Of a stretch of DNA of 64,000 nt, positions 24,958 to 62,673 are shown piece by piece; positions within the stretch are counted from its first letter, which is position 1; each line of letters starts with the position of its first letter. Source of the stretch: Botryllus schlosseri. Its lineage: Eukaryota. The position numbers were made by a program, and so were the translations under genes. The notes below the pieces were generated by a model, which was not told where the DNA came from, made no database searches, and saw only the letters and a list, made by a program, of their open reading frames with translations. The stretch is from positions 29,266,001 through 29,330,000 of the forward strand of contig CM119371.1 of assembly GCA_051294905.1 (NCBI GenBank), read 5' to 3'.

Positions 24958-25258
24958 TTAGAAAATCTTTAAAAGTATCAAAGCAGTGAAGCTTATCTGA
25001 AGCGCTAGAAATATCCACAACAAAAGTCGGTCGACAACTTTAGCAACGCTTCTCCAATCTTCCGAGATAGCCGCGACTGCTGTGTTCCGCCTGAATTGGT
25101 CTGCGATCGTGTCGACATTCCACGCAATGTTGATCGCATAGGCATTTGCAATTTCGGGCCAATTGCTGATGGGGGATGTCTGCGTGGAATTGTCCTTTGG
25201 AGGTACGTGAGGCGACTGCGCAAACTGCTGACCTTCGGGTGACGAAATGATTTGCGAT
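24958..25258 (-). CDS. nAChR-like subunit, last exon (MA helix, M4, stop)
   Basis: ttcgcag acceptor, phase 2; ...NVDTIADQFRRNTAVAAISEDWRSVAKVVDRLLLWIFLALQISFTALILLKIF*. Confidence 0.9.
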
Positions 25259-26072
25259 CTGCGAAAGCGATTTATTAAAACTATTCAGCGAATGATTTCG
25301 CGTACAGGTAGTGACGAATGGCTGTCTAGCATATGTAGAAGTGCTTCCCAGTTCTACTACAGAATAGACGTACCACCTCACAAATAAATATTTTGTTGCT
25401 TTTATGTTTCATGGTGTTTCGACATATATGGTGATTTCCAGAGGTGGTCAATAGCGAAGTATATCTTCTACTTCGCCTACTTGCTCTACTCAAAGGATAT
25501 GTTCCAAAATACGTCCACTTCTACGTAACGGTTTTTAGTGTAAACCTTCTTACTTTTACACTTTGGATTTTGCAAATTCAAAAGTAGGTTTTGGATAGGT
25601 TTATATCCCTTTTACAAGTGAAATTATCATGGCGAACGGTCGCAATAGCCCTTATTGTAATGACAACGGAATATATTCGCGAGATGTGCACATCTTTGCA
25701 TTGCTATTAAAGTCATTTTGTGTTGGCTATGCATTTTCCAGCCACCTTAGATTGACTACAAAAACTATGCGTCTCCTTGACCAAATCCGCTTTTCGAAAC
25801 TACTTCAGTACTTTTCTGGCCTTTAATTTTTCCTTGGTTGTCATGTCTAAGAAATTGAAACGTCTGCTTGTAATTTAGTATAAATTCACATCATTACGCC
25901 TACTGCTGAGTAGCAACGCTGAATAGTTTGGTAACCTTTGGATATGCATCATAGATCCTATAATAGTAAAGTAAGTACAAAAAGGAATTGCATTATAGGT
26001 TATAAATTTAATGAGTTAGTTGCAGAAAAGACACTGAGTTGCATGTGAGATTTAATTGGTTTCTCGTCATAC

Positions 26073-26903
26073 CTGGAGGAGCAACGTCCTTCGGCAGGTG
26101 ACTTGGAGCACAACTTCGCTCTCCCGAACAGAAAGGTGCTGCCGTCGACATACTCCGACATCGTAATTTTCGCCGAAGGACAACCGGACTCAATCGTCTC
26201 GCCTGCGTTGCACTTTGAGCTCTCACTACACGTATGCGTCGAGTACGACACTTCCGTATCGTCCGAATAATCAGCTGTACGCGTGATTGCGTTCATGACA
26301 AGCAGCGACTTCCGCTTGTTTTCGAGGCTATCCCGCGCTTGTTGCGTCACAGACACCGGTGTCGATGACCTGGTGTTAGCCCGTGTGATTTGCTGCGATA
26401 CTCCTTTCCGCAGTACCGGTCTTGAGCTAGAATTACTGTTACCGGTACTGTATTTCGCATCCGTATCTACCGGGTACACAACCGTCGGCAAGCCTGATCC
26501 GGATCTGTCGAATCCGGTGAAATTACGAGGACATGTACGATTGGTATTAGGCGACAAGGGTATGCAATTTTGACCGCTGTTGACAGTAAATGATCCGCTT
26601 TTCAAATCGTAGCGCGCGTCACGTTGGCAGTCTTGATACCCGGCACATGATCCGTTGCCTGTCAGTTTATGGCTATCCGCCTTTTGCCCCTGCGTGCAAA
26701 CACCTTGTTGGTGACTTGAAGAGTCTCCTAGAAATGGAGTGCTTTCCTCTTCTTGTATGGAATATAATTTGTTGTCGTCTGCAGGCTGCGAAGTTTCAGA
26801 ATGTCGTAGCTGCATGTCGGTATAGCTGTCGGATTTCGCCGCAGGCTGCACTCGGACATTCAAAATTTTAGCGAGATGATGGAGGATATATTTGCGAACC
26901 CAC
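26073..26903 (-). CDS. nAChR-like subunit, intracellular loop exon (831 nt)
   Basis: catacag acceptor, CAG|gtatga donor; MX helix WVRKYILHHLAKILNV then a Ser/Thr-rich loop; phases consistent. Confidence 0.85.
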
Positions 26904-27412
26904 CTGTATGAAATTAAAATATACTTCTTCACGCGAATGGTGCGAGAGGAGGAGATGAACTTCGATTTGGATTTGTAAGAGTATCGAATGTCACAGTCGA
27001 TAGTGTAAGAGCTGAGAGGCGGAGATGAGCTTCGATTTGAATTTGTAAAATTAACATCAGATCGCTCAGGTGTTACGTGTTATTTCACAGCATTACCATA
27101 GGTTCTCAAAGTAGACATCGCTGGTACTGAAGCAGAAGTAAAGTAACGTCATAAATTTCCACTCGAGTTGTATTAAAAGTTACGGTTCCTAAGTAAGTAA
27201 AAAGCAAGCATTTTAGGCATAGTTTAGCCTGAGAAAACTGAAAATGTTAGAGGCGTACATATAAGTAGTCGAAAACATGACCACTTTAGTAAGTATTGTA
27301 AGCAGGCTAAAAGTAGAAGTAGGCCTACTTCGTTACTGAGTACCTTTGCGTCGCATTGCCAGAAGGCACGAACAATGCAATGACTCGTGACAATATTTTT
27401 TAATCTACTTAC

Positions 27413-27518
27413 CGAGGAAGTGTCGGTGGGTTGGATCCGCAATAGTGTATGTTTTGGACGCAAATCGAAAATACGGTGCTCGTTAGGAACAGTAACATCG
27501 TCGTGATGTAATATTTGA
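27413..27518 (-). CDS. nAChR-like subunit, M3 exon
   Basis: ttttcag acceptor, CG|gtaagt donor; VKYYITTMLLFLTSTVFSICVQNIHYCGSNPPTLPR. Confidence 0.9.
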
Positions 27519-29168
27519 CTGAAAAATATAGCGGGGATGTTATGCAAGCTAAATGGGGGTTAACATCTTTACATGTGTTGCACTAGCGTAGCAGCATGTA
27601 CTGCCGCCCCTGGCTCTCGCTTAAAATGCCCCCCCCCCAAGTAGACCGCAGCAAATTTCGACATAGGCCCTTTTCATACCGGGGTTCCGGGAATAACATT
27701 TCTCGAAAATGTTTACCGGAACCCCTCTATGTGAACATAACACTGGTGATTCGGGGCGGTATGAACGCGGTTATTTTCGGAGATTTTTACGGGACCGACT
27801 GAGTATGAACACGAATGGCGCAGCTGGGTTCCCGGAACGCTGTCAATCAATCTTTTAGTTACCGTAACGCGCTGTTCATTCAGGCTGCTTGTATTTCGAG
27901 GTCAGATACCTGTGGCATTTTGGTCTTCTTGGTAATGGTGTTGGGAATGCATTATTCTTGGATTTATATTCTGTATGCTCACAATACGTAGTCACTGACT
28001 ACTAGTCAGCTTCTTTTTTATGTGGTTTTGTAAACAGAGCACGGCTAAAAAGGTAGAACACCATCTCCAATGTCCAAATCATGCAGCATTGGGTGAGTTG
28101 CCTGAAAACGTTAGCCCTTCAACACTAATTTGGTAGGTGATCTTAACCCTTACCAAATTTGTTACATCAAAGGCAAGTTTCTAACCACGGATATGCTGTG
28201 TGTAGGTTAGTCACCGTCATATACGCCTACTGAAAAGGGGATTTAGTAACATTTGCTTTGATAGTGGCAGCACAGCAGAGAATGATGTCCTTAGCTCTGA
28301 CTCACTAACCAAAATTCAAATTGTAGCTCTGACTCACTAACCAAAATTCAAATTGTACCAACGGGCTGGTAAGCCATCGTACATCATCCAAGCCATAATT
28401 TGGTTTTCACCTATGCCTTCATTTTCTTGTTACAACCAAGTCATTCCTTTGTTATGCAAGGTTAGGCAAGTGTAACTTAATTTGATCTTTTCGCAGGTCT
28501 AGATGGAGGATACTGATGAAAAAGGTGAAAAGGCGGGACTGTGCAATTGTGCATCAAGTTATAGTTTCTCTCATGAATAAAATGAACCAGCACAAACACA
28601 TCTGGTTAAGCAAGAGCATTGTTTATTGAGAAAGTCACACAGGGCATTTCCGACGTCTGGGCCAGCGATACTTGGATCACCACCAGGTCTTGTCTTCATT
28701 GCGTATACCATCCTCTGTATCATTCTGGCCTTAGCGGATTGCAGTTTATGAGAAAAGCTGAACACCGCGCCTTCAGTCGACCAAAATCTTTCAACCTTCA
28801 TGTGTGCTTTGCCAAGTTTCTGAAAAAGCAATTGTGAATTTTAATGGCAGCAGAAAGGAAATTTATATTACATATTTGAAATTAGCTTTAGCTTATGTTC
28901 TGTTTGTGTTTCAGGGAAAAGGCTCCATGAGCCGGGGCTGAAAGGGATAGGCTGCATCATCAGTTATGTAGGCTAGTACGGAACTCTCTGGCTCCCAATC
29001 ATGAAGTCATCCTGAAAAAACTTGAATGCAGCAAATGCATGTTTGGTACAAATGTTGCTGTGGTAATTTTTTATCCACCTACAACACTCAGACTTGTACA
29101 AAGTACTGGAATTTAAAAATGCGCAACTTCAACTAGAACTACTCAATTTTTCAAACTAGCAACTAGAA

Positions 29169-29826
29169 CAGCGGTGGCCAACCTTTTCAGCCAAATCACC
29201 ACATTCGATTGACGAACTATTCTGCCGGCCACTAGCCGCGCTAAGCACGAAAATTTTTTGAAGTTGATAAATTCATAATATTGTCACTTGACTATATTGT
29301 AAGCCTGCTGTATATTGCTGGGCTCAGTTTGCAAGGACTGGACTATTCGGCACCTGGACATATGGATATCGAAAGCTTCGTCCAACATGCGGCAATCATT
29401 TTGTGCCTAGGTTTCATAGTCGACGGTCATTCTGCGAGAGCAAACATGAGGTCGCGAATATATATATAGTTAGACTCAATCTGATAGATTAGGCATTCTT
29501 TCATTTTCACAAAGGGGTAACAATATTAAAAGCAAGAAATCGAGTGACAAGATGTTGCGCTAAGCGTGTAGAAAATTTTTACTTTTGATTTATCTATCGC
29601 AAAGTATTCTGCTTTATTGTAGTGTACGAAGATCTACCAAAATGTGACTGGCTCATAGACCTACCACTGCGTCGGAACTGATATTTCAGTCATCACATCT
29701 CAAGTGCTGCGGCCAGACTAATCAAATTTTTGATTGGCCTTGCAAGTTCACAATCTGTGCAATCCATTTTTGATAATACTACTAATTTCGGAAATTAACT
29801 CGCGGGCCACTGGTTGGCCGGCCCTG
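29169..29826. mobile_element. hAT MITE
   Basis: Ends cagcggtggccaacc / ggttggccggccctg; perfect TSD aactagaa; related inverted copy at 57357-58178. Confidence 0.85.
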
Positions 29827-30382
29827 AACTAGAACATCAACTTCAAAATCTGCTATTAGAACTAGAACTACTCACTTTCAAATATCCGCAACTAGAACTA
29901 CATAGTTTTAGTAACTAAATAAGTAGGTTGATGTACATGTCTGACTACACTACAAAAAATATACAAATTTGGTCTCATTTTCAGCAATTTCAGTCAAGTG
30001 AGCAGGGTTGTAACCAAGTCACAAGTCGATCCCACTTCAATAGTTTTGACTAGATTCAAGTCGAGTCATTTTCAATTTATCACCTAGTCAAATCCGAGTC
30101 CAACTCATCGATCAGAGCGTCGAGTTCGAGTCATGGTTTTATGACTTGAGTCCAAGTCATTGTGTTGATTGCTCAGTTTCCAGTTTAAGTCTATTTTTCA
30201 TCCATTTGGGTCTTACTTTTGACACAGAAAGTAGCCTACTTGGCAAGAACAATTGGTCTTTCAGACTTTTTTTTCTGACATAATGATTCAAGACCAAATT
30301 TGTATGACCTTTTTGCAGTGGTATGCTACGCAAAAACTGGCTGACATTCCGCCATGACAAATATAGAAATATTACTATGCAC

Positions 30383-30895
30383 TAGGGCTGGGCAAAATTG
30401 AGTACCTGAGTGATTCGATTCTGAATCACTTATTACGTTTCGAGTCGAGTATCATCATGATGACATCACAATTCACAACACAATGTACCATGCCAAAAAT
30501 TCAAATGTGTAGGCTACCTTTTATGCCACCATAAAGAACATAACGCCTATTGTCCGTCACATTAAAGATACTTTAATGTTTTTTCGACCATACCGTTTTC
30601 ATTGCATTGCTTGACAGTGTTATATGGGATGGTCATGACTTCGGAAACGTGTTATTTCCAGCAACGTTCGTAGCTTTGTACTATATCTCGTATGTTGCGA
30701 CACGGCCAATCAAGGTTTCAAGGCTTACTCAGTGGTAAAGTTTATCAAAACTATGGTATAATTCTCGTTAGTAAATCAACTTTCAGTATAATTTCAGTAG
30801 CCTACTCGAAAAGTAGTATTTTACTACTCGCCTCGAATCAATAAAGTTATTACTCGATTTAGATTCGAGTATTCGAATCATTGTGGCTAGCCCTA
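30383..30895. mobile_element. hAT MITE
   Basis: Ends tagggctgg / ctagcccta; TSD ctatgcac / ctaggcac. Confidence 0.75.
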
Positions 30896-31958
30896 CTAGG
30901 CACGTAGGGCACCAGCAATTTTTATTAAAATCAACTTGTGACAGTTGCATTCTTAAAATACATCTGATGCTTACCTGGATCTATAAACGATTGGCTTCGT
31001 TTTCATTGGCTAGCCGCCAAAGAGCGACAGCTACTCAGCAAGCAAGAGAAATTGAGTTCGTGTAATTTGCTTGCTGCTTTTCGTTATGGTCTCGAAGCTC
31101 GTCGCAGAGTATACCAAATGTTTCTCTCACGAATTTCTCGATTTCCCTGGTTTCTCTGTACATAAGATTAGATTTACCCAAACCATTATACAGCAATCAC
31201 AAAGATAAACTGACTTTGTCGTACCTCGTACGCAGATGTGATCGCCTGATCGGTGGTTCTTTTCATTCCAGGACTCTATCCTCTTTGCTGGCTTTCAGTT
31301 TCTGCTCTCAGCTTCGGTTGATAATATACAAGTCAGGAACATACTCGGGCTCTATATTACTGATACAGATATTGAGTATAGAGCCACATACACATCGAGA
31401 AGGCATATCCGCAACATCCCATAGCTAAAAGTTGGAGCCAACTTCTCCGCATCTCACGTATATGCCTCTCCCACATTGTTTTCCACAAGCATATTACAAC
31501 TGGAACACCCCACAGACGTGGTTTCGTAACTATCAACAGTTACGGAGAATCGCGTTCATACTGGCCATAATTTCCCGCGAATTTACCGAAAACACGACCT
31601 GTGTGAACATAAGTTCGCGGTAACTCTAAATAGGTATGAACGCGTCCTTTTCCCGGAACTGTTCCGGTAATTTTTTCTCTATGTGAACATCGCCTGTTTC
31701 GGAACTTGTTCCCGAAAGAGTTTCGTAAATCCGGTATGAAAAGGGCCATAGATTCATGTTCAAACAATCTAGTCAATAAAAATAATTACATATAATATGC
31801 CGCGTCTCAGCCTCGCCGCCTCAACGTTAATATGGCCAAAAATAATAAAGACAAGAAATAGCGAACGAGTGTATTGTGAAAATGGAAAATCAATTGCCGC
31901 CTCAAAGCAAAATCAGCGATAATATCCTCAAATTCAAGTTTTTGAAAGTAGTCTGTTT

Positions 31959-32150
31959 CTATATAGACAGAATGCATAGAGCGGATAGCCGATCATCATT
32001 CCTGGTAGAACGTAAATAAGATTTAATCAGTTTAAGCTTTGAGAAGCTCCTCACACAGCTCGCAATTGAAACACCAATGGTCAGATAAAGTTTCAGACAC
32101 GAGCATAAATATGGTGTCGAATCAAGTAGCTTTGCATTAACTAACCACTG
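31959..32150 (-). mobile_element. hAT transposase C-terminal dimerisation domain fragment
   Basis: PYLCSCLKLYLTIGVSIASCVRSFSKLKLIKSYLRSTRNDDRLSALCILSI. Confidence 0.8.
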
Positions 32151-32759
32151 TATCCACTCCCGCCTAGACGCGCTAAGCGCGAAAAATTTCAAGAATTCAT
32201 GATTGAATCGGTCAGTATCATCGGGGATTGCATATATATTGCTATCAATTTTTATCCCCTTTCTGCTGACGTAATCAGATTTACCGGTAGAGCTGATTGA
32301 GATGTATTTGAAAAGGTAGGACCCCTCAATAATAATTAAACATCTTCGGGCGCATACCCGTTGACAGGAACGAAACAACACTTCGTGAGGTTCCCAAAAA
32401 CTTGGGTCTTGGGCTCCCATAGGGTGATAAACCGACTCCCCCATCGTGTTGATCGCTTTTTCCACGAAATTAGCCGTGCTGTTTAGTGAGCCAGCGCCAA
32501 GCGCAAAAAGTTTCCATAATTAATGATAAAATCGGTCAATAATATCGGGAATTGCATATATATTGCTATCATTTTCGTGTCCCTTCTATGCTCACTTTAT
32601 CAGATTTACTGGTAGAGCTGAGTGAGATGCTGTAGTTGACTCTGTCAACGTGAATTGGACTTAGAGTATTATTAGGACTATCATATGTGGCCAACATACA
32701 TTGTATCGTATACATCTTGTAACTAGTCAAAGCCAGAATCGTTTTTGTGTATTGCGCAA

Positions 32760-33090
32760 GTTTTAGAAAGATATATCTGCCCTTTTCGTACCGCGACTAT
32801 TTCGCGATCCGTATTCCTATTGGCTAAATTTCACAAACTGTGTTACGTAAAACTAAAGTTCTAGAAAGATATCTCTGCCTTTTTCGTACCGCGACTATTT
32901 CGTGATCCGTATTCCTATTGGCCCTATTGGCTAAACTTCACCACCTCTGTTACGTAAAACACGCTGCCTTTTTCGTACCGCGACTATTTCGCGCTCCTTA
33001 TTTCTATTGGCTAAATAGGCTACTTCACAAATCCATTTTTTCGTCCTGCGACTTTTCCGCAATTCGTTTCCCTCATTGGCTAAACTTTAC
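32760..33090. repeat. About 100-bp tandem repeat, 3 copies plus a partial one
   Basis: ctgcc.ttttcgtaccgcgactatttcg.g...tatt.ctattggc recurs at ~32777, 32876 and 32964. Confidence 0.8.
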
Positions 33091-35307
33091 AACCATTGTT
33101 TCGTACTGCTGTAGTATAAACTCGATCGTTTTCTCGAATAATGTGAGACTCATATAACCGCTGCTAGGACGAACGTCTTTCCTTGTCGTTTCCACACAAA
33201 TACATTCGTGTCGGAGAACTCGCTGTGAATTGAAGAGCTTGCAACAGTATACAGCACAACCAAGGCCTTCACTACTGCTGCAGTGTCTTGGAAACTGTTG
33301 GGCCCGTAAATAATAATTAAACATCTTCGGCGGGCGGACTAGTTGGTACGACTTCGTTACATGATGTTATTTCGTGACCTCCTGTCTGCTACATCAAAAA
33401 ATATAGAATCGGGCAAACGTACTTAACTAAAAGACGCACACGATTTCAAATTGGTTTTTCTTCACTGGCGTATAATTTTTCCTACGGGATGGAATTCGTC
33501 TTCTGTGGTTCAGATTGCCAAGACAGGAACATTCGGCGCCAGTCATTTAGGCGCCTAGGCTGTGGGCAATTAAAGCTATATGTATTTTGTATATATGATG
33601 AAGTTTTCGGTCAGCGTAAGGGCAGTCCTTTTCGGTCAAGGTTTTTGCGCTATGCCGATCGTTCTGGCACATTTCTTGGAGTCGCATGTAATATGTCCTA
33701 AATCGTTATATGTCTTGGTACGTCGTGTCGCGGTGTTGGCCAACGCCGATATGTCCATTTCTAGAAATCTTGCGTGCTCTTTTCTTGGGGGAAGAGTACC
33801 AAATAATCATGATATTTGACACCTTGAAATCGCACGTAGCGCGAAAAAATTTTGAAAAGTTGCAAAAATTTTCAAAAAATACTCTATAATTTATGCTAAT
33901 TCACGAAATAATTTTGGACCCTCTTCGAGCTCGCCCCCCCCCCCCCAATTGGGGGTTTGGGGTGCGGCAGTTACAGTCCTGCGTATCGCATCTCCGTCGT
34001 CAAAGCATCTCGATGATGCAGGCGAAAAAAATACCATATCTCTCTCTCTCACTGTGCAGCCTCATGTTGCCGCCCCCTTGGAGCCTGCCGCCCCTGGCGC
34101 AGAGCCAGAACCGCCAAGTGGCTGCCACGCCACTGATGTGTTGCGGGATTGCCAGCCAATCTCATGCATATTAAGCGACCGACAATCGGTTTTGATACTT
34201 ATATCCTTGTGGGCAGAGGTGGCCCTTCGATGGGGGGGGGCTTGGGCGAGACTTCTGGAGGATATATAAGTATGTAATGGCCCCCAGACCCCCCTTTCAG
34301 ATCTACTGTTACCAACTTAATATTAGTGCGTCATTTGGAACGGGATTACGTGATGCGTATATGACACTCATCCTCGGCTTTGAAGCAGGCCGGAATGTTG
34401 AATTGCACTAGCTCATGAGCCTTCTTTTATCAGACATTTTCAAAATGAACCAGTTAACTATAGCTCATGCATTCATGTTGAAGATGTATGGCGCGTAGCG
34501 TGATATAGCGCTACAACTGCTGCAGTCTAAATAGACCCACACTAATCTGGAAAGCTTCGACCAGTGGGCCCCCTGCGACCACTCACCTCGCCCAAGTCAA
34601 AAGCCAAAACTGATTGTGGGTGAACGGCACTCTTTAATATGCTACTCCGTATCATAAATAGGGCTATACTAAAGCTATGTATGTAGGCCAAGATGGAGGT
34701 TTGATTAATGGAATTCACAATGTCGTTTCGACTACCTAGGTTATATTAATAAACACATGCATTTCAAATCGAAATAAACATAGTAATTGATGATGACTGA
34801 AAATTCCATTTTTTCGCTTCTAAAAACATATACGCACCATGTTTTGGCAAATATAATAGCATAGCAGGATAGTAATTAGCGCCATGGTTACACGTTAGAA
34901 ATGTGTCGTGACGTAACCGTAAGGTTGACAAGAACAGACAAAATGATAGTAGTTCACCGGTTACACTGAACGAAACATTTGGAAACCGATCCATCACTTT
35001 TATGGGTTGATGTTACAGATTGTTTTTGTAACTGCATGGCTGAAAAATATGTGTTTACCCAAAATTTACACCTCGATGCAGGGTGAAAATCAGGTCGTCA
35101 GCTTTTCTGGACCCAAATTTAGCTTGTATACCTATTCCAATGGGGGAAACGAGTCCAATACACCAACCGTTCCCCGGTGCAGTGTACCACAAGTTGCACA
35201 TTCCTGGGGGTGGTACACGGATACAGAATCCACCCCACCCCGAGATATATATCCTTGAAAGTTGTACGTGATAATATGATATAGCTATTCAAAAACAATG
35301 ATCTCAC

Positions 35308-35624
35308 CAAATAACGGCGCACTTTCAAATGGTGGAGCGGTCCGTACTGACGTTACCAGTAGTACAACCAGAACCAGCATAGTCGTAACGCTTGCGGGAA
35401 CTTTTCCACCGGAATCGTTAGGAAGTAAAAGCGTCAGAGGCATTAAAACCGAAATGAGGACACAAGGAATTATGAAGACGTAGATGTAAAAGGATGATTG
35501 GCGCTTGAGTTGAAAGTTGATTTCGATCAGCGTCTTGGCTTCGTCTCGCATGGCTGACCTTCCAATTGTTCGTTTCAGCGTTGACATTGTGACGTTCCAT
35601 TCCTGATTAGGAATGAAGTTGTCC
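35308..35624 (-). CDS. nAChR-like subunit exon (loops F/C, M1, M2)
   Basis: acgcag acceptor, G|gtgaga donor; DNFIPNQEWNV...FQLKRQSSFYIYVFIIPCVLISVLMPLTLLLPNDSGGKVPASVTTMLVLVVLLVTSVRTAPPFESAPLF. Confidence 0.92.
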
Positions 35625-36491
35625 CTGCGTAATCAAAGGACTTCATGTCAGCGCCCCAGAGAGGTAAGTTTGCTTTCGGTGCAGGGTTGAAAAAATGTTC
35701 AACGTGATATCCGCAAGTCTACATGAGGTCATTATAGCAATTTATTAAATGGTCTACATATGAATGATAATTTTTACGGCAAGGCCTAGGAATGGAACGC
35801 CTTTCTGTGGACGTTCGCAGGATGCCGAATCATGCGACTCAGTCAGTTTTGAAATAGCGAACTCGGCGCCCACTCCTTCGTGCCAACCCCACGCCTGCAC
35901 GCCAACAGTACTACTTCATCAACGAATAAATTGTTTCAACAGTTTATTCAAACCGTTGGAAAGAGAACCTCGACCTCTCACCTCAAAACTTCGGCTGGCC
36001 GTAATTCAGAACCGAAAAACTAGTTGCACAAGGCTACGAATATTCATGACACGATATCATTGTTTCAAGTAGTCAAATAGCCATGGTCCAGAAATAAGAA
36101 GTTGTTCTGTTTTAAGTACTAAATTCTTTTTTATCTACTCCTAAATCGTCAATGATGAATCACTTCGGTGCCCTGATTGTAGCGACGCATACCAACAGCG
36201 GCATGGCCCACAAAAATAGTAGGCCATGACAGCGTAAAATATATGATGAATCGGGTCACTTTTGGAAAGGATGTATCTTGCGCTATATACAGCTGCAATC
36301 AATATAGTGTCGCCAAGTTGATTCTTTGTCGACATCAACGTTTATTTTAATTAATAGAGATTTAACGATTGCTGACTTCCCGCAAAACCTCAACATCGCC
36401 ACTATTATATCAATATTGTAGCGATTATTATCGATCGATTGCTATAATATTTGTCTATTAGAAATGAATATTTGATGATATAACCTCTCAC

Positions 36492-36707
36492 CTATTTAGT
36501 TCCGTTTGATTACTCAGCAAATCCAACCGTTTCGAGTCGTAGGCCCGCGATCCGAACTGAAGCCTGCAGTTTTGCGAATCGAACGGGAATTCGGACACGT
36601 CCATTCGGCACATGGCTCGCGTGGTCACTGGCTGTTCCCAGCGTACTTGTCCGTTTGATTTTACAATCACAATGCCATCGAGGTTCCGCGTAAACGTGGC
36701 TTCAGCA
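36492..36707 (-). CDS. nAChR-like subunit exon (Cys-loop)
   Basis: ttttcag acceptor, AG|gtgaga donor; Cys-loop CRMDVSEFPFDSQNC followed by FGSRAYD. Confidence 0.93.
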
Positions 36708-50069: not shown

Positions 50070-50463
50070 GATACGATGTGACATAATTGTGCGGAATACG
50101 TCTTCACGTGCAGACTCGGTCAACTGGATAATGCTAGCTGTCTAATTTCACTAAATTAGAGCGCAAGCAGGCTATCCCAAGCCATTTCGCACAGAAGAGA
50201 CTCTAATCCTGCTCACCGTAACTCCTCCGCAACTCCACCTTTATGGTCTGCTTTTGAAAGATTATGCGTTAAGGTTCGTGTTTATTTTGGTTAAACGAGG
50301 TGTAAATGATATAGAACATCAAAATTTGTCGTCAAAATCGATGTAATATCCGTGTACGTGCTTAGGGTTAGGTAATGCGACATGTTCTGCATGTCTGACA
50401 TGTATGGTATGCCTTTGAAATATGACAAAATGAAGGTTGTGCTCTTTTTTTATACTAAAAGCG

Positions 50464-50536
50464 TGACCCCGAAGGGACTCGAACCCTCAATTTTCTGATT
50501 CGAAGTCAGACGCCTTATCCATTAGGCCACGAGGCC
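50464..50536 (-). tRNA. tRNA-Arg(TCG)
   Basis: Intact; one variable-loop substitution. Confidence 0.9.
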
Positions 50537-51276: not shown

Positions 51277-51349
51277 TGACCTCGAAGGGACTTGAACCCT
51301 CAATCTTCTGATTCGTAGTCAGACGCCTTATCCATTGGGCCACGAGGCC
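51277..51349 (-). tRNA. tRNA-Arg(ACG)
   Basis: Intact; T-loop TTCAAGT variant. Confidence 0.9.
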
Positions 51350-51663
51350 GCTGGGTGACTAAGGACTTGTACGGAATAGACCTTTGGTGTATTCACTTGG
51401 GATTGTAATTACTTCTGGAAATGCGACCTTTTCGAGCATCACGCACTTAAAAATGTTTATTGAACTATAAAAAATTACCCTCTAACCCTGGCGCTGAAAA
51501 CTTTTATATTATGACACGTGACCTTAGATGTGTAAACCAGAATTTCTGAAATTTAACGTTTGAATTGATTTACTATTTGCGTACGTCTGTAGGAGGGGTG
51601 CTTGAAGTTGCCGTAACTCAAAAGCAACTCAACTCGTGTTTATTTCGGGTAAACTAAAAAGCA

Positions 51664-51721
51664 TGACCCCGAAGGGACTCGAACCCTCAGTCAGACGCCT
51701 TATGCATTAGGCCACGAGGCC
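51664..51721 (-). pseudogene. Anticodon-deleted tRNA-Arg (58 nt)
   Basis: Identical to 45998-46055. Confidence 0.85.
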
Positions 51722-52818
51722 GAACCATGGCTGGTCGAGTCATTTATGTCACCACTCAAAATCCGTGCAAAACTATCGCATTAATATTGTTTTTCAATTA
51801 AAAATCCTTTCAACGCGATTGAACACCATTCCATATCTCTAGCACAGGATTCAATGCAATAGTAGGTGAAGATATTTTACCGAACCTATTCCGCAGGGCC
51901 GACATCTTTGACCTGTTTCTGGAAGATAGCAATTGTTTATGGTTAAACTGACAAGCATGTGATTTTTCTACGTATGCGCGAAGCTCAGTACTCCAGTCTA
52001 TTAACGGGCTGCCTAAATTTGTAACCCGGTTGCTAAGGATGATTGTGGATAGCGCTTTTTGAATGGAAATTAAAAAGTTTGGCCCAAAGGTACTCGAGCT
52101 CGTAACCCCTGACACGCGTCGGACGCCATGTTCATTAGGCCGCGTGGTGCGTATCAAATGAGGAGGTCAGGTCTTTGACGTCATGCATCCAAATTCATGT
52201 AAAACTATCGCAATAATATTGTTTATCAATGGAAAACCCTTTGAACTCGGATATACTGGTATCGATCTTGCACTACTATACGTTACGAAGCAGGAACAGT
52301 CATCATATTTGTCACATCATTGAAGTATTTGGTTTTGCCCAATATTCCATATATCTACCAAAGGCTCCAGTGCTGTAGTGCTGGAAGTTACTTTACTAGA
52401 CTTATTCTGCAGGCCCGACATCAGTGACCTGTTTTTGAAATATAACGGTTGATTGTGGTAAACTAAAATAAACTGTGATTTCTGCAGATATGCGTGAAAC
52501 CTGCGTCGCCTGATTTATTCATGGACCGCGTAAATCTGTAACCCGGTTACGAAAGACGATCGTGGATAGCGATTTTTGGATGGAAACTAAAATGGTTAAC
52601 CCGAAGGGACTCGAACTCTCGCGAACTCGTTGTTCATTTAGGCGGCGCTGGGCGTATCAGAACCGAAAACGATTGTCGTCAGAATTGATATCATTGCCGT
52701 AAAAAGGAGTGAAGTTACTTATTCCAACCCGCATCGTGGGTCCGAAATTTACGACATGCTGTTTGAAATGACAATTTGATGCGTGTGCGAAGTTTGATTG
52801 AGGAGAAAATAAAAAGTG

Positions 52819-52889
52819 CGACCTCGAAGGGACTCGGACCCTCAATATTCTGATTCGTATTGACACTCCTTATCAATTGGGCCACGAGT
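52819..52889 (-). pseudogene. Degenerate tRNA-Arg(ACG)
   Basis: Copy of 47152-47222. Confidence 0.75.
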
Positions 52890-53283
52890 GATACGATGTG
52901 ACATAATTGTGCGGAATACGTCTTCACGTGCAGACTCGGTCAACTGGATAATGCTAGCTGTCTAATTTCACTAAATTAGAGCGAAAGCAGGCTATCCCAA
53001 GCCATTTCGCACAGAAGAGACTCTAATCCTGCTCACCGTAACTCCTCCGCAACTCCACCTTTATGGTCTGCTTTTGAAAGATTATGCGTTAAGGTTCGTG
53101 TTTATTTTGGTTAAACCAGGTGTAAATGATATAGAACATCAAAATTTGTCGTCAAAATCGATGTAATATCCGTGTACGTGCTTAGGGTTAGGTAATGCGA
53201 CATGTTCTGCATGTCTGACATGTATGGTATGCCTTTGAAATATGACAAAATGAAGGTTGTGCTCTTTTTTTATACTAAAAGCG

Positions 53284-53356
53284 TGACCCCGAAGGGACTC
53301 GAACCCTCAATCTTCTGATTCGAAGTCAGACGCCTTATCCATTAGGCCACGAGGCC
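53284..53356 (-). tRNA. tRNA-Arg(TCG)
   Basis: Intact consensus copy. Confidence 0.95.
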
Positions 53357-54096
53357 GCGCTGCAGGTGGTGAGATCTTTGACGTCACGCATCGAAATTTA
53401 TGTGAAACTATCGCATTAATATTGTTTTTAAAATTAAAACCCATTTGAACGCGGATGTACGGGTATCGATATTGCACTACTATGCGTTACGAATTAGGAA
53501 CAGTCATCATATTTCTCACATCATTGAAGTATCTGAGTTTGCCCACTATTCCATATCTCTACCAAAGGATTCAGTGCTGTAGTGCCGTATTTACTTTACC
53601 TAACTTATTCTGCAGGCCCGACAATTTATAGAGTTGTTCAAAAATAACTTTTTTCCCGGATTCCGGACATTCACTGATTAAATTGTCAGGTTACCCTTAA
53701 AAACGCTGCACACCAAATTTGGTTCAATTTTAACCAGTATAAGTCCCCGCAGAGTGAATTTAAATTTTTAATTTATCACGATAAATTAATAGAAAAGTTC
53801 TAAAATTAGTAGGTAAACCCCCTGGAATTGGGGCGTTGTCTTCAAAAAGGATGCAAAACAAATATGACTCAATTCTAACCCTACGGGAGCTATTAGAGAT
53901 TTTCATATATAATTCTGGGATTATCCACCGACAATGCCGTCAGAACCGAGAGCTTTTGTCTTCAGAATTGAATTCATTGCTGTGGAAAGGAGTGAAGTTA
54001 CCTTATCCAACCCGCATAGTGGGTCTGGAATTTATTGTATGCTGTTTGAAATGACAATTCAAGGCTTGTACGCAGTATTAGAAGAATTAAAAGGAA

Positions 54097-54169
54097 TGAC
54101 CTCGAAGGGACTTGAACCCTCAATCTTCTGATTCGTAGTCAGACGCCTTATCCATTGGGCCACGAGGCC
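54097..54169 (-). tRNA. tRNA-Arg(ACG)
   Basis: Intact; identical to 51277-51349. Confidence 0.9.
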
Positions 54170-54483
54170 GCTGGGTGACTAAGGACTTGTACGGAATAGA
54201 CCTTTGGTGTATTCACTTGGGATTGTAATTACTTCTGGAAATGCGACCTTTTCGAGCATCACGCACTTAAAAATGTTTATTGAACTATAAAAAATTACCC
54301 TCTAACCCTGGCGCTGAAAACTTTTATATTATGACACGTGACCTTAGATGTGTAAACCAGAATTTCTGAAATTTAACGTTTGAATTGATTTACTATTTGC
54401 GTACGTCTGTAGGAGGGGTGCTTGAAGTTGCCGTAACTCAAAAGCAACTCAACTCGTGTTTATTTCGGGTAAACTAAAAAGCA

Positions 54484-54556
54484 TGACCCCGAAGGGACTC
54501 GAACCCTCAATCTTCTGATTCGAAGTCAGACGCCTTATCCATTAGGCCACGAGGCC
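54484..54556 (-). tRNA. tRNA-Arg(TCG)
   Basis: Intact copy at the array slot where the other units carry the deleted form. Confidence 0.95.
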
Positions 54557-55215
54557 GCACCGAAGCTGATCGGATCATTTACGTCAACACTCAATATTCA
54601 TGCAAAATTATCGCATTAATATTGTTTTCAATTAAAAATATTTTGAACGCGATTGGACTGGTATCGATCTTGCACTACTGCGTTTGGAGCAGGAACAGTC
54701 ATCATATATGTCACATCAATGAAGTATTTATTGGCTTTGCCCACTATTCCATATGCAATGCAGTAGTGCGTGAAGTTATTTCAGCCAACCCATACTGCAG
54801 GCCGACATTTGTGACCTCATTTTGAAAGATAACGATTTATTATTGTTAAAATAAAAAGCATGCGATTTTTGTATATATGAGCGAAGCTCAGTAATCCAGT
54901 ATACTCATGGGCCGCTTAAATTTGTAAAGCGGTTGCGAAGGTTGATTGTGGATGGCGCATTTTGGATAGAAACTTAAACGTTTCGCCCGAAGGGACTCCA
55001 ACTCCCAACCTTCGACTCGACGTCGGATGCCTTGTCCATTTAAGCCACGCAGTGCGTATCAGAACCAGAAACGTTTGTCTTCAGAATTGATTTCATAACC
55101 GTAGAAAGGAGTGAAGCTACCTAACCAACCCGCATCGTGGGTCCGAAATTTGTGACCTGCTGTTTGAAATGACAAATTGAGGCTTGTACGCTGTTGGAGG
55201 AGAAGCTAAAAAGTA

Positions 55216-55288
55216 TGACCTCGAAGGGACTCGAACCCTCAATTTTCTGATTCGTAGTCAGACGCCTTATCCATTGGGCCACGAGGCC
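55216..55288 (-). tRNA. tRNA-Arg(ACG)
   Basis: Intact; one variable-loop substitution; T-run terminator. Confidence 0.9.
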
Positions 55289-56445
55289 GCCACGGTGACG
55301 TCCATAACCTCAGATTTATCATGTCAGGATCGAGGTTGTTTTCGTATTGTGTGTGAAGTGAATCTATGTAAGCCAACCCAACTCGAAGATGACGAATTGA
55401 GCGGCGACAAATTAAGGGGTTACAATGTGGAATTGTAGTTGTTAAGTTCAATGCAATTTCTTCCGTACTGATGAAATAAAAAATTATATCAGATAGAACC
55501 ACGAATTACATAAACTCTGACCAAGTAAAACCCTTGCAATAGTGCGACATGCCTTACCAACTGGATATTGAGACCCCAGCCGGTAGCATAATAATACTAC
55601 TTCATCAACCGGGCGGTGTGCAGAATTATCATGATGAAAGGTAAACATTTAATTTGAAAGTAGCAACCCGATTATGGCGTGCAATTACCATAATATACTC
55701 TATCGGCAATGTCTATAAACTAAAGCGTTTCATTGCGAATACTGCTTATTTAGCAAGTATTGGATCATTTCGAGAAGTTTTAAATGGAATATCGTTGACA
55801 GCACGCCCTGTTTTAAATATCTATATAGTTCTTTCCTGAAATTCCCAAATTATCCGCGGAACACCTGAAATTCAGTAGCACATTTTGTGAATTCACTATG
55901 TCAGTGCGATCACAATTTTGATGACGATTACAGCAATATGTCGCAGTAATCGATTTACGATAACATAGAAATGTATAATCAGTACTATTTATCATTTCGG
56001 TACCGACGAATTTGTGCCAGATCGCATGCGATGTCGCACATGCGCTTGGGTCTACGTTTTCAGTGATCTCCTTGTCACATATGACGAGTAAACGTATTGA
56101 TTGTTGAGCTTGGTCTGGATAGGATGGTCCTCAATATTCTGTGGCTATTTTGCACTTCTTATCTACTACGCTACGTGGCCTTGCAGGTGTAAACGAGAAC
56201 CTCGAAATTTGTCGTCAGAATTGATGTAATATATTCGTGTACTCTACACAAGTACATCGCGATCAGCGTGTAATTGGATCTTCAATTGACCTCAGTGGCA
56301 ATATGGGTTTGACGGAGGTAGAAAAGAGATATAGGCTGAAGTTTTCAAGCAAACCAAAGTCATATCATCCAAGAATGGATATAAAGGCCTGCTTTTGAAA
56401 GATGACAAATTGAAGGTCGTGTTATTTTTGTTAAGCGTAAAAGCA

Positions 56446-56518
56446 TGACCCCGAAGGGACTGGAACCCTCAATCTTCTGATTCGAAGTCAGACGCCTTAT
56501 CCATTAGGCCACGAGGCC
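56446..56518 (-). tRNA. tRNA-Arg(TCG), B-box variant
   Basis: Full length; T-loop TTCCAGT (G57C). Confidence 0.7.
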
Positions 56519-56902
56519 ACATGTCGTCGGGTAGAACCGAAAGGCTTTCTTCTCAAATTTCCGTAATTATCGTACCGTACATATATGAGTACGGCTATAT
56601 TAACTAGCCTACAGCGTGGAACTTAGATTTATGACCAGCTCTTCGACAATGACGAAATAAGGCTGAGAATTTACGATAACTTTATTGTACGAGCTCGAAG
56701 CGACTCGAACCCGCACGCCTTATCCACGATCCACTTAGTAGGATCAGAACTTCATATCTGTAATGTCAGAATGAAGGCAATTTTCGTAAATGTGCGCGAA
56801 GCTAAGTAAACTGATCCAACAGATTTCGTGGGCGACAACTTGTGACCTACTGTTCGAAAATGACGAATTGAGCGTGTGCATTTTGTGAAGAACCAAAATG
56901 CA

Positions 56903-56976
56903 TGATCCCACAGGGACTCGACACCTCAATCTTCTGATTCGTCGTCAGACGCCATATCCATTGGGCCATACGGGAC
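56903..56976 (-). pseudogene. Degenerate tRNA-Arg(ACG)
   Basis: Anticodon arm recognisable (G33); T-arm and acceptor stem decayed. Confidence 0.7.
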
Positions 56977-57066
56977 CTACACGACTTGCGTAAGGGCCAC
57001 AATTATATTTGTTCATAGTTGAGGAAATATTCGTGGATACATTCGTTTTGATTAAACTAAAACAAT

Positions 57067-57139
57067 TGACCCCGAAGGGACTCGAACCCTCAATCTCCTG
57101 ATTCGAAGTCAGATGCCTTATCCATTAGGCCACGAGGCC
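57067..57139 (-). tRNA. tRNA-Arg(TCG)
   Basis: Full length; G26A and A43G (wobble pair retained). Confidence 0.85.
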
Positions 57140-57356
57140 ACGCGTTAGTCCGTGCAAAACTTGGGTCGAAATCTGAAATAGGCCTACTTGTCTCTGATAC
57201 AGATGAAATCAAAGGTATATAACATATAGGCCAATAGCCTCACCCCTGTACGAATTGTCTACAAGCATCGTGGAGTATCGATAAAGATTCAACAATATGA
57301 CTGCACAAGGGCACAGTGTAGACGTAGAGTTACATTATTGTCGCTAGACAGTTACA

Positions 57357-60079: not shown

Positions 60080-60189
60080 CTGTTGTATAGTACAATATCT
60101 GGCAACCATATCTTCTTCGCTGGTATTCTGATGTTATCTATGCCGTCGTACTTTCTTGGGATCCAAGTTAGCCCTGCATCTCGCCACTC
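60080..60189 (-). CDS. nAChR-like subunit, canonical 110-nt exon
   Basis: caacag acceptor, AG|gtataa donor; EWRDAGLTWIPRKYDGIDNIRIPAKKIWLPDIVLYN. Confidence 0.95.
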
Positions 60190-60387: not shown

Positions 60388-60460
60388 TGACCTCGAAGGG
60401 ACTCGAACCCTCAATCTTCTGATTCGTAGTCAGACGCCTTATCCATTGGGCCACGAGGCC
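60388..60460 (-). tRNA. tRNA-Arg(ACG) in the preceding intron
   Basis: Intact consensus copy; no immediate TTTT terminator. Confidence 0.9.
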
Positions 60461-61867
60461 GGTATCATACTCGGAATGGTAGATCTATATAATCTCACAA
60501 TCGAGGTCATTTTCGTAATGTACGTGAATCTGCGTAACCCAATCCTACCCAACCTATTTGGCGGGCCCGAACTTGTGACTTGATCTGCGATAACTATTTA
60601 TTTTACTACATGGAAATATCCATCTGTGGCGATGACAGTAGGATTACCATATTCTTAGATCCGACTTTATACGAAGTCACAAAAGACCCCACGCATAACC
60701 AGTTAAGGTTGGCCTTTTATTTTTGTCAACCTTGCTGTCGAAATCCATATTTCACGTCTAGCATGGATTTTTTTTGCTTGTCTGTAGGATCGCCTGACTT
60801 TCAACGCTATAAAGTAGGACGAATTGCGAAAAAGGAGGACATATGGTAACCATAGATAACAGTAACTTACGATTTCACAATTCTACACATTGTATTGTTT
60901 TGCCATTGGCTGTACCGTCACAGAAAGATATTCCACAAAGTAACATTTTATGCGAGTTGAATGCGGCGTCGATTCAGCCCAGTTACGAACCTGACCCTTT
61001 TGAAAGATTGCTAAAGGATATTTTGATATAATAATCGATTGAAAATTATACGACTTTTCTGACACTGTATACTACCGTATCAACGAATAGGCATGTTAAC
61101 GATATTGCGGTCCAGCGGATCAGAATTTGCATCTAGCATTACGAATCAATAAACAATCTTCTTATCATAATCGCTTGTGGTAACATGAACATATTAACAA
61201 AACGACATTGATGAAAAAATGTTAGAAACCCAGAAAGCTGACGTGCCTCGTTGTCAGATGAAGGTATATATGCTAGTAGCATTCTACAATCTACGACATC
61301 TACGGCAGTGGTTCTCGACCTTTTTCACCTCGCGGTGAAAAAAATTTCAGAAAATATATGGCGGACCGGTGGACTTTCAAAAATCGAAATTAACCCAAAG
61401 GATGCCACCATGTGATGTTACGGTAGTGAGTCTACTGAGTCGAGGTAAAGTTATCTTGACCAGAGAAACATGCTACCACCGGGAGTCGTTCATAGTCTTT
61501 CGTGCCGAAAGCCGTGGCTTTAGCCGACCACGCTAACTCCAATATTATTCTTCCCTTCGACAATATCGAGAGAAGAAGCGTTTTGGAGTCTATATAAGCA
61601 CCTTGTCGTGCTACCTTGCCCACTACCACCAGGCGTAGGCTACTCTGGCTACTACGAATATAATGCGCCGCACCAAAACCCCTGACAACAGTTACGCCCT
61701 ACAAGTAATTTACTTCTAAGTGAAGCAGCTGTTCGCGCGTGCTTATGGTGACACTTAATGGTGCAGGGAGAGGAAAATATATCGGATGTAAGACTAAATA
61801 ACCTTGCCAAGGCTTATTCTGACACATATTCTCCGCCTTTTTACCTGTAACACAATTATAACTTTAC

Positions 61868-61912
61868 CTGGCGTATCGAGAGAAAGCAGGAGAACGTCTG
61901 GGCTCGCTCGTC
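61868..61912 (-). CDS. nAChR-like subunit, canonical 45-nt exon
   Basis: ttttcag acceptor, CAG|gtaaag donor; DERAQTFSCFLSIRQ. Confidence 0.9.
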
Positions 61913-62527
61913 CTGAAAATACAGTATAAAATCTATTTTGGTACATCTCTTGGCAGGCCCGCATGAGTAGGATATATACTTGCTTAGTTTTAACGATATA
62001 TATCAGATCCTATAACTAACAGCACAATACTGTGATACTAAGATGAGATTGGAACGAGTTGAAACTACTTGGTGAATTGTCATCACCTCATAGTATGTTC
62101 GTTCATGCAGTATTTACAGGTTACAAATAAACTCATGTAAATTTAGGTTACAATCTCAGAGTAAATATCGGAAGATGTGGATATTATTATAATAACTCAG
62201 TTTAGTACTGCTAGGTGTGCGTATTGTATATTACAGATTCAGTCAGTTGCGATGTTAGGCCTGCACCACAATCCATGGGGTAATTTCATTGCTACAAATT
62301 TATCTATTATTGTCTAATTCCATTGCGGCTATATGCTATATGCAGTATACACCATATCAGACATATACATATCGCATGCTGAATTCGAGCAGTAAAGTGA
62401 TGTAACAATACTCAGATAATATCTAATTTGTTAGAATATAGCATGCCAACGTTCTGGTTTTATACTGAAATATAACTTATGCGAATTATCCACGTGTTAT
62501 AGATCCGAGAAAACTACCATGCCTCAC

Positions 62528-62673
62528 CAGTTCAATTATTTGATGTAAAAATACCGTGAGATTAACCGAAAGGACGTTGTTAGTGTCGTTCACGGGTCTG
62601 ATGTCCTTTTTGTAATCCAAATACATATCGTAGACAAGTTTTTGTGCGTATCTCCTATCGGCCGCGAAGGAAT
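62528..62673 (-). CDS. nAChR-like subunit, N-terminal helix exon
   Basis: ctttcag acceptor, CTG|gtgagg donor; SFAADRRYAQKLVYDMYLDYKKDIRPVNDTNNVLSVNLTVFLHQIIEL. Confidence 0.92.

What the first reader, a model, noticed from the sequence alone, without database searches (positions are those of the whole stretch)
24958..62673. Orphan nAChR-like channel that has lost the acetylcholine-binding aromatic box
Seen: an open, phase-consistent model of about 690 codons with nAChR exon sizes (45, 110), a Cys-loop and M1-M4. Loop B reads FGSRAYD (the cation-pi Trp is Arg), loop C has no YxCC or second Tyr (RTIGRSAMRDEAKTLI), and loop D reads FLSIRQ (no Trp). Only the loop A Tyr (LYNSA) remains. Known: these residues bind the quaternary ammonium of ACh, and cephalopod chemotactile receptors arose from nAChRs by losing them. 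Inference: neither face should bind ACh, and an Arg in the pocket suggests a neutral or anionic ligand, i.e. a candidate independently evolved chemosensory or orphan channel. It could also be a purely structural subunit.
Basis: partly seen in the sequence, partly recalled or inferred. Interest (0 to 1): 0.7.

Follow-up and report, generated by a model that had tools for sequence, protein, structure and literature searches.

The report
Acetylcholine-blind alpha9/10-type nicotinic subunit
This is an intact gene, probably from a sea squirt, for a relative of the vertebrate hair-cell acetylcholine receptor that has lost its acetylcholine-binding residues and its usual cation-selective pore charges, so it is most likely a non-binding helper subunit and possibly a channel for some other signal.

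Summary
Observation confirmed: eight GT-AG exons (62673-24958, minus strand) give 689 open codons with Cys-loop and M1-M4; W149 is Arg, W55 Ser, and loop C lacks Y190, C192-C193 and Y198. The protein is not an orphan by descent: it aligns without a gap over 326 residues (44%) to a vertebrate alpha9-like subunit and groups with alpha9/alpha10 (99/98). RNA supports only the last two exons. An Arg in the pocket is the known mark of non-binding beta2/beta4/beta3 faces, so it does not point to an anionic ligand. Best reading (0.45): a non-binding accessory subunit that lowers site number and calcium/cation flux. Orphan sensory channel 0.25: no expansion, ligand or tissue evidence. The host is probably an ascidian (inferred), where two reviews report no alpha9/alpha10; that makes it a probe for the hair-cell/coronal-cell question.

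The parts
62528..62673 (-). First modelled exon (146 nt): N-terminal helix and beta1; enters in phase 1 after an unidentified signal-peptide exon
   Evidence: AG/GT ends; Pfam LBD E 6e-4; gap-free to alpha9-like
61868..61912 (-). 45-nt exon with loop D; W55 is Ser (61879-61877), R57 kept
60080..60189 (-). 110-nt exon with loop A; W86 and Y93 kept
   Evidence: Pfam LBD E 2.5e-11
36492..36707 (-). 216-nt exon: loop E (Arg117, Glu119), Cys-loop (C128 36610, C142 36568), loop B (G147, Arg149 at 36547-36545, Y151)
   Evidence: Pfam LBD E 1.2e-17; PDB nAChR hits; DNA-like contig of X5 identical over 36498-36677
35308..35624 (-). 317-nt exon: full-length loop C without Y190/CC/Y198/D200 (35557-35528), M1, and M2 with -1' Gly (35407), 2' Pro (35398), 6' Thr, 9' Leu, 13' Val, 20' Arg (35344)
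   Evidence: relatives P0156 and P0003 keep these states
27413..27518 (-). 106-nt exon: M3 and the alpha9/alpha10-type post-M3 motif
   Evidence: inside the gap-free alignment; profile hit E 5e-4
26073..26903 (-). 831-nt exon: MX helix and a long, Ser/Thr-rich cytoplasmic loop (M3-M4 stretch about 360 residues)
   Evidence: open frame; covered by RNA reads of X18 and contigs of X1
24958..25258 (-). Last exon: MA helix, M4 and stop
   Evidence: Pfam Neur_chan_memb E 4.6e-9; joint 25258/26073 seen in one X1 contig and 10 X18 reads
62738..62813 (-). Unproven candidate for the signal-peptide exon (ATG, 25 codons, phase-1 GT donor, 64-nt intron); its start lies in a dispersed repeat, so the true first exon may lie upstream of the window
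   Evidence: no reads laid here

Best explanation
An alpha9/alpha10-lineage nicotinic subunit that has become a non-binding accessory subunit. Shown: descent, loss of the acetylcholine residues on both faces, loss of both acidic pore rings, retention of the assembly and gating scaffold (Cys-loop, loop A Trp-x-Pro-Asp, 9' Leu, 23' Pro), retention of the changes in two relatives. Inferred: it takes one or two places in a pentamer whose acetylcholine sites are formed by other subunits; its own pocket is filled by its basic side chains (Arg149, Arg193, Lys198), as arginines do in beta2/beta4 and beta3; each copy removes binding interfaces and replaces an intracellular and an extracellular acidic ring residue, which lowers calcium entry and conductance; the long cytoplasmic loop serves trafficking or anchoring. 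It carries the trend of mammalian alpha10 (basic binding domain, Arg117) to both faces.
For: Gap-free 326-residue alignment at 43.9% to alpha9-like P0008, 39.9-42.8% to four other alpha9/alpha10-type proteins, against 35.4% or less with gaps for every other class among the 53 long hits; clade with vertebrate alpha9/alpha10 99/98 in a 28-row tree; placement with the alpha7-like rows rejected, p-AU 0.01. beta3, an accessory subunit, has loop C arginines, lacks the Y190-type Tyr and has a hydrophobic residue for the post-loop C Asp; beta2-Arg149 and beta3-Arg190 block the pocket (PMC9319688 passages): the same three features are present here. Arg117 and excess basic residues mark the defective complementary face of rat alpha10 (PMC8634148 passages); here the extracellular domain has 31 K+R against 27 D+E, versus 16/29, 19/34 and 21/28 in three alpha9/alpha10 references. 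-1' is Glu in 141 of 149 other hits and 20' is Glu/Asp in 124 of 149; muscle gamma-type non-alpha subunits tolerate a neutral -1' residue and E-1'A abolishes calcium permeation in alpha7 (PMC2233820 passages). Both relatives have Met at 6' beside Pro at 2', which is easier to house once or twice per pentamer than five times (inference).
Against: No partner is shown: no genome was available, and vertebrate alpha9-like subunits are said to assemble only with each other (PMC7086180 passage), while no Ciona alpha9/alpha10 appears in the one chordate survey read; without a canonical paralogue the accessory role has no obvious host. Loop C is as conserved as the rest of the exon in the two relatives, which also fits a new binding site. 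beta2/beta4/beta3 keep the loop B Trp, so the match is an analogy. No RNA read covered the loop B or loop C/M2 exons in the three RNA-type runs laid.
Confidence: 0.45

Rival explanations
1. Orphan ligand-gated channel: a homomer, or a heteromer with equally remodelled sister subunits, whose basic pocket (Arg149, Arg193, Lys198, Arg117, Arg57) binds an anionic or neutral molecule, and whose pore, lacking both acidic rings, is calcium-impermeable and weakly selective or anion-permeable.
For: Both faces and the pore changed together, and 20 of 30 derived residues at positions invariant in 11 vertebrate alpha9/alpha10 sequences are identical in all three sequences. Loop C keeps full alpha length, unlike the shortened beta3 loop. 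alpha9 forms homomers (PMC8634148). nAChR-derived channels with new ligands are known: cephalopod CRT1/CRB1 as cited in PMC10338036 and dopamine-gated alpha9/10-like channels (bioRxiv 10.1101/2025.10.31.685654).
Against: No second nAChR gene in the 64 kb and only two close relatives in the protein searches, so no sign of a receptor expansion. The anion-selective signature (-2' Pro, 13' Thr) is absent. No tissue or ligand data. Known pocket arginines mark non-binding faces.
Confidence: 0.25
2. Non-conducting subunit: a decoy or dominant-negative partner, or a scaffold that signals through its long cytoplasmic loop without ion flux, as proposed for alpha9/alpha10 in vertebrate immune cells.
For: Pore changes at -1', 2', 6' (relatives) and 20'; M3-M4 stretch of about 360 residues; papers on non-ionic alpha9/alpha10 signalling exist (PMC9523446, PMC4923896; search listings only).
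Against: The 9' Leu gate, 13' Val and gating prolines are kept. The loop looks weakly constrained: both listed exonic variants change a residue and X18 shows an in-frame 225-nt loss in it.
Confidence: 0.17
3. A gene under relaxed selection or one whose full-length message is no longer made.
For: Long branch (1.65 substitutions per site); zero RNA depth on the exons at 35308-35624 and 36492-36707 in X14 and X18 and none in X1 contigs, and no exonic depth at all in X14 (6% of the run read).
Against: 689 open codons with intact splice sites over 37.7 kb; correct splicing of the last intron in two runs; two relatives at 85% and 78% with open frames and the same derived residues. 3' bias at low expression explains the coverage (inference).
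Confidence: 0.1

Closest known systems
Vertebrate nicotinic alpha9/alpha10 (CHRNA9/CHRNA10, hair-cell receptor); nearest rows P0008 (XP_056140252.1, alpha-9-like), P0022 (XP_055493305.1, alpha-9), P0155 (XP_065531979.1, alpha-10)
   Same: No insertion or deletion over 326 residues, 40-44% identity, post-M3 motif and short C-terminus; one clade, 99/98; genomic read-through ORFs of alpha9/10-type hits start and end where exons 4 and 5 here start and end; Arg117 as in mammalian alpha10.
   Different: No W149, Y190, vicinal Cys, Y198, D200 or W55; no -1' or 20' Glu; 2' Pro; at least eight introns where vertebrate CHRNA9/10 have four (PMC6354393 section 6), including the 45/110 intron that they lack; much longer cytoplasmic loop.
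Accessory neuronal subunits beta3 and alpha5 (beta3 ECD structure 8a5u is the top PDB match of the Cys-loop exon)
   Same: Derived from an alpha lineage; no vicinal Cys; loop C arginine, loss of the Y190-type Tyr, hydrophobic residue for the post-loop C Asp; Gly kept two residues before the loop B Trp position.
   Different: Different lineage; beta3 keeps the loop B Trp and has a shortened loop C; the pore rings of beta3/alpha5 are not remodelled like this (recalled).
Cephalopod chemotactile receptors CRT1 and CRB1
   Same: nAChR-derived and insensitive to acetylcholine (as cited in PMC10338036).
   Different: They bind terpenes, steroids or bitter compounds; an expanded, clustered family with a hydrophobic (CRT1) or retained aromatic (CRB1) pocket and cation pores is recalled, not read (primary paper not held). 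Here: one multi-exon gene in the window, a basic pocket, altered pore, unknown tissue.
Alvinella Alpo4 and invertebrate dopamine-gated alpha9/10-like channels (Dm-DopC1)
   Same: [quoted passage not shown]
   Different: Both keep the aromatic cage; Alpo4 keeps -1' Glu and 20' Asp, and Dop channels keep YxCC.

Membership tests
Cys-loop pentameric ligand-gated ion channel subunit | Cys-x13-Cys loop with the conserved Phe-Pro-Phe-Asp, loop A Trp-x-Pro-Asp, four membrane helices | tested here: met
Cys-loop pentameric ligand-gated ion channel subunit | N-terminal signal peptide | tested here: inconclusive
   only a candidate exon at 62813-62738 whose start lies in a repeat
nAChR alpha subunit (principal face) | Vicinal cysteines C192-C193 in loop C | tested here: not met
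   Met-Arg; Leu-Arg and Met-Arg in the relatives
nAChR alpha subunit (principal face) | Aromatic box Y93, W149, Y190, Y198 | tested here: not met
   only Y93 kept; Arg, Ser, Lys at the others
nAChR complementary (beta2/beta4/delta-type) subunit | Loop D Trp55 and a non-basic loop E residue 117 | tested here: not met
   Ser55, Arg117 (Arg117 effect from PMC8634148)
alpha9/alpha10 subfamily (by descent) | Groups with vertebrate alpha9/alpha10 in a tree | tested here: met
   99/98 careful tree of 28 rows, SH-aLRT 93 in 48 rows; sister position not rejected p 0.287; alpha7-like position rejected p 0.01. Long branch; no certain tunicate or amphioxus orthologue and no vertebrate alpha1-7 or 5-HT3 row with a known name in the set
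alpha9/alpha10 subfamily (by descent) | Vertebrate four-intron gene structure | tested here: not met
   shared boundaries are present but there are seven introns in the model plus one after the missing first exon against four
alpha9/alpha10 subfamily (by descent) | Conserved synteny with CHRNA9/CHRNA10 | not testable with these tools
   no genome held
Cation-selective, calcium-permeable nAChR pore | -1' Glu and 20' acidic ring | tested here: not met
   Gly and Arg in all three sequences; Glu in 141 of 149 and Glu/Asp in 124 of 149 other hits
Anion-selective pLGIC pore | -2' Pro, neutral -1', 13' Thr | tested here: not met
   only the neutral -1' is present; -2' Gly, 13' Val (criteria from PMC2233820)
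Accessory subunit (beta3/alpha5 type) | Pocket arginine, loss of Y190-type Tyr and of the post-loop C Asp | tested here: met
   (resemblance, not descent)
Accessory subunit (beta3/alpha5 type) | Co-assembles with binding subunits and is silent alone | not testable with these tools
   needs expression
Cephalopod chemotactile receptors | Member of an expanded tandem family (recalled) | tested here: not met
   profile search of the window finds only this gene's exons; the rest of the genome could not be searched
Cephalopod chemotactile receptors | Expression in sensory epithelium and gating by environmental compounds | not testable with these tools
   runs carry no tissue labels
Cephalopod chemotactile receptors | Descent from the CR clade | not tested
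   no named CR sequence in the trees; placement with vertebrate alpha9/alpha10 makes it unlikely

The most novel reading that the evidence does not exclude
An ascidian orthologue of the vertebrate hair-cell receptor alpha9/alpha10 has been rebuilt into a non-cholinergic channel: a basic pocket for an anionic or neutral signal and a pore without acidic rings (calcium-impermeable, possibly anion-permeable), used in coronal or other sensory cells. It would be an independent, chordate origin of a sensory or inhibitory receptor from a nicotinic gene.
Probability: 0.2. Interest if true: 0.8.

Novelty: new variant of a known kind. Interest (0 to 1): 0.5.

Why it matters
Two reviews state that alpha9/alpha10 receptors have not been described in ascidians and that finding them, and their cells, would test whether tunicate coronal cells and vertebrate hair cells share an origin (PMC5401870; PMC8634148). 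If the host is an ascidian, this gene is a direct probe for that test, and it says that the lineage survived in tunicates in at least one copy that cannot bind acetylcholine. As an accessory subunit it would be a third, convergent route (after beta3/alpha5 and mammalian alpha10) to a non-binding nicotinic subunit, with a natural pore variant (-1' Gly, 2' Pro, 20' Arg) that is easy to assay. As an orphan channel it would be a chordate parallel to cephalopod chemotactile receptors.

Tried and rejected
No whole genome is held for this window, so paralogues and synteny stayed open. Word-index searches with single exons: none for the loop C/M2 exon among longer proteins (201 candidates; weak evidence), none for the loop B exon, and 224 pattern hits but no confirmed relative in metagenome contigs; so conservation of Arg149, Ser55 and Arg117 in relatives is untested. 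ESM Atlas gave only generic neurotransmitter-gated channel clusters. AlphaFold of the 105-residue exon piece was uninformative (mean pLDDT 58.4, pTM 0.26, loop C modelled as helix); no model of the whole domain or pocket was obtained. No listed holder run is on record as RNA, which is no evidence either way. Alternative or duplicated nAChR exons in the window: none (tblastn, profile). Assembly error at the loop B codon: disfavoured by X5. Pseudogene: disfavoured (see rivals). alpha7 ancestry: rejected. Earlier findings near this place or like these sequences: none. Papers describing a tunicate alpha9/alpha10 gene: none seen in searches (listings; the library lacks most subscription journals, and automatic database names were not surveyed). 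The primary octopus CR paper is not held, so CR details beyond one search are recalled.
Full report
1. Observation. The gene is on the minus strand. Eight exons, 62673-62528, 61912-61868, 60189-60080, 36707-36492, 35624-35308, 27518-27413, 26903-26073 and 25258-24958, all with AG acceptors and, for the seven introns, GT donors, splice to 689 open codons and a stop. Five of seven exon pieces scanned hit the two Pfam neurotransmitter-gated channel families, and the best solved-structure matches of the two exons searched are nicotinic subunits. With Torpedo-type numbering anchored on loop B, W55 is Ser, W149 Arg, Y190 Ser, C192-C193 Met-Arg, Y198 Lys and D200 Leu; W86, Y93, G147, Y151 and the Cys-loop are kept. 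The signal-peptide exon is missing from the model; a 25-codon hydrophobic candidate at 62813-62738 has the right phase but starts inside a dispersed repeat.

2. Is it real and expressed? Four runs were laid on 24200-37000. The last intron (25258/26073) is spliced as modelled in one contig of X1 (RNA is a guess) and in 10 reads of the RNA run X18. X18 covers the last two exons; depth is zero on the loop B exon and the loop C/M2 exon in X18 and X14, and X14 (6% read) shows no depth on the last two exons either. So transcription is shown for the 3' part only; the other junctions rest on phase and homology (121 weaker joints were not shown in the output). Contigs of X5 cross exon-intron borders, so it is DNA-like, and one matches 36498-36677 without a difference, which includes the loop B Arg codon. 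X18 also shows a 226-for-1 replacement at 26557/26784 (40 reads, 31 starts): an in-frame loss of 75 codons from the cytoplasmic loop, without splice consensus or end repeat, either an allele or a library artefact.

3. What it descends from. A phmmer search with the loop C/M1/M2 exon gave 1035 hits, best 150 listed. After one close relative, many top rows are vertebrate alpha9/alpha10: 6 of the first 10 looked up are vertebrate proteins, five of them named alpha-9 or alpha-10. Residues 1-326 of the model align to alpha-9-like P0008 at 43.9% with no gap, and to four other alpha9/alpha10-type proteins at 39.9-42.8%; two partial or mis-spliced alpha10 models score 38%; all other classes among the 53 long hits reach 35.4% or less, with gaps. 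A quick tree of 48 rows (six divergent or partial rows left out) joins it to the vertebrate alpha9/alpha10 rows at SH-aLRT 93; a careful tree of 28 rows does so at 99/98. A position as sister to all vertebrate alpha9/alpha10 is not rejected (p-AU 0.287); a position with the alpha7-like rows is (p-AU 0.01). The branch is long (1.65) and the set holds no sure invertebrate-chordate orthologue, so one-to-one orthology is likely, not proven. Genomic read-through ORFs of alpha9/10-type hits begin just after loop A and end just after the M2-M3 linker, at the outer borders of exons 4 and 5 here. From memory, human CHRNA9 has exons of 146, 155 and 533 nt, which equal 146, 45+110 and 216+317 here. Vertebrate CHRNA9/10 have four introns and lack the 45/110 one (PMC6354393 section 6), so the structure is related, not identical.

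4. Host. The window is 40% GC with CpG observed/expected 1.10, which excludes a vertebrate by established knowledge; with the closeness to vertebrate alpha9/alpha10 this points to an invertebrate chordate. Earlier AI notes on the same genome call it a Botryllus-type ascidian (unchecked, not tested here). I treat 'ascidian' as probable. [quoted passage not shown] A 2026 Botryllus cholinergic preprint (PMC13596531, passages) maps CHRNA7 only and has no 'alpha9' in its text; a tunicate sensory-cell review (PMC10973136, passages) has no 'Chrna'. Searches listed nothing that describes such a gene; automatic database names were not surveyed.

5. (a) Loop E carries Arg117, which in mammalian alpha10 is tied to a defective complementary face, along with an excess of basic residues (PMC8634148); the extracellular domain here has 31 K+R and 27 D+E against 16/29, 19/34 and 21/28 in three references. 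(b) M2 reads -1' Gly, 0' Lys, 2' Pro, 6' Thr, 9' Leu, 13' Val, 20' Arg. Among the 149 other listed hits -1' is Glu in 141, 2' is Pro in 2, and 20' is Glu or Asp in 124 (these hits were chosen by likeness to the query). Neutralising -1' removes calcium permeation in alpha7, while anion selectivity needed -2' Pro and 13' Thr as well (PMC2233820 passages); an acidic residue at the outer end also supports calcium permeation in 5-HT3A (PMC2443672 abstract). The prediction is low calcium and cation flux, not a clear chloride channel. (c) Two unnamed proteins, P0156 (79 of 93 identical) and P0003 (63 of 81), cover this exon and read through into the same intron. Of 55 positions invariant in 11 hand-picked vertebrate alpha9/alpha10 rows, the query differs at 30; both relatives differ from the vertebrate state at 28 of them and carry the identical residue at 20, among them Arg193, Lys198, Leu200, -1' Gly, 2' Pro and 20' Arg; both have Met at 6'. 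The remodelling is therefore older than their split and has been kept. They may be orthologues or paralogues; no DNA was available for dN/dS, and no relative covers loops B, D or E.

6. How it most likely works. Neither face can build the cation-pi box, so acetylcholine binding is very unlikely (established nAChR pharmacology). The solved precedents say otherwise: beta2-Arg149 and beta3-Arg190 fill the pocket of faces that bind nothing, and accessory beta3 also lacks the Y190-type Tyr and has Phe for the post-loop C Asp (PMC9319688 passages), the same pattern as here. I therefore rank first (0.45) a non-binding accessory subunit of the alpha9/alpha10 lineage that reduces site number, conductance and calcium entry of a heteromer. 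Its weak point is the partner: alpha9-like subunits assemble with each other (PMC7086180, one passage) and no canonical paralogue could be sought. Second (0.25) is the orphan channel: pocket and pore changed together and are conserved, loop C keeps alpha length, and nAChR genes have been re-tuned before (CRT1/CRB1 and Alpo4 in PMC10338036 passages; dopamine-gated alpha9/10-like channels in bioRxiv 10.1101/2025.10.31.685654 passages, whose supplements are closed). Nothing here shows chemosensation: the window holds one multi-exon copy and no tissue is known. Third (0.17) is a non-conducting decoy or scaffold, fourth (0.10) relaxation or loss of the full-length message.

7. Verdict. A real and conserved Cys-loop subunit; a member of the alpha9/alpha10 lineage by descent, but not an alpha subunit by function, not a complementary subunit, and not a chemotactile receptor by any test made. 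Acetylcholine-blind nicotinic subunits are common in invertebrates, so the kind is known. What is new is the lineage and probable host, and the joint loss of both binding faces and both pore rings. Novelty: new variant of a known kind. Interest 0.5; the most novel reading has probability about 0.2 and would merit 0.8.

Noticed in passing
window 40838-57140 (minus strand, inside the 23-kb intron), also 60388-60460, 3809-3881, 7743-7815: ARAGORN finds 18 tRNA genes, all Arg; 15 lie in this one intron, mostly alternating TCG and ACG anticodons, on the gene's own strand, partly as a young tandem unit of about 2.83 kb (95-98% identical over 44602-54655), with decayed copies between them.
   Followed up: partly
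window 28819-30975 and 28070-28496: Reads from three RNA-type runs show a spliced joint (CT..AC, minus strand) and other joints inside the intron before the M3 exon; depth in the DNA-like run is in the hundreds to thousands, so this is a transcribed repeat family, probably read from other copies.
   Followed up: no
window 31962-32519 (minus): hAT transposase C-terminal dimerisation remnant (PF05699, E 1.2e-6) in the same intron.
   Followed up: partly
window 26557-26784: In run X18, 40 reads lack 226 bases and carry one other base: an in-frame loss of 75 codons from the M3-M4 loop, with no splice consensus or end repeat; allele or library artefact.
   Followed up: partly
window 11600-14100 (minus): Several overlapping low-complexity ORFs in different frames with a short repeated peptide unit, some ending at GT donors; may be exons of a neighbouring fast-evolving or frameshifted gene; no Pfam hit for the two pieces scanned.
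   Followed up: no
window 23791-24063 (plus): ORF with weak C2H2 zinc-finger-like matches (all below cut-off) about 0.9 kb behind the stop codon, touching a repeat that recurs at 985-1429.
   Followed up: no
window 62782-62887 and 63047-63237, with inverted copies at 37870-37976 and 37417-37598: The same two repeat pieces sit just upstream of the first modelled exon and in the large intron, in opposite orientation.
   Followed up: no
P0108 (Branchiostoma lanceolatum, named CHRNA10): An amphioxus protein among the hits also lacks the vicinal cysteines and has an altered loop B and a long branch; it falls next to, not inside, the alpha9/alpha10 clade, a possible parallel loss.
   Followed up: no
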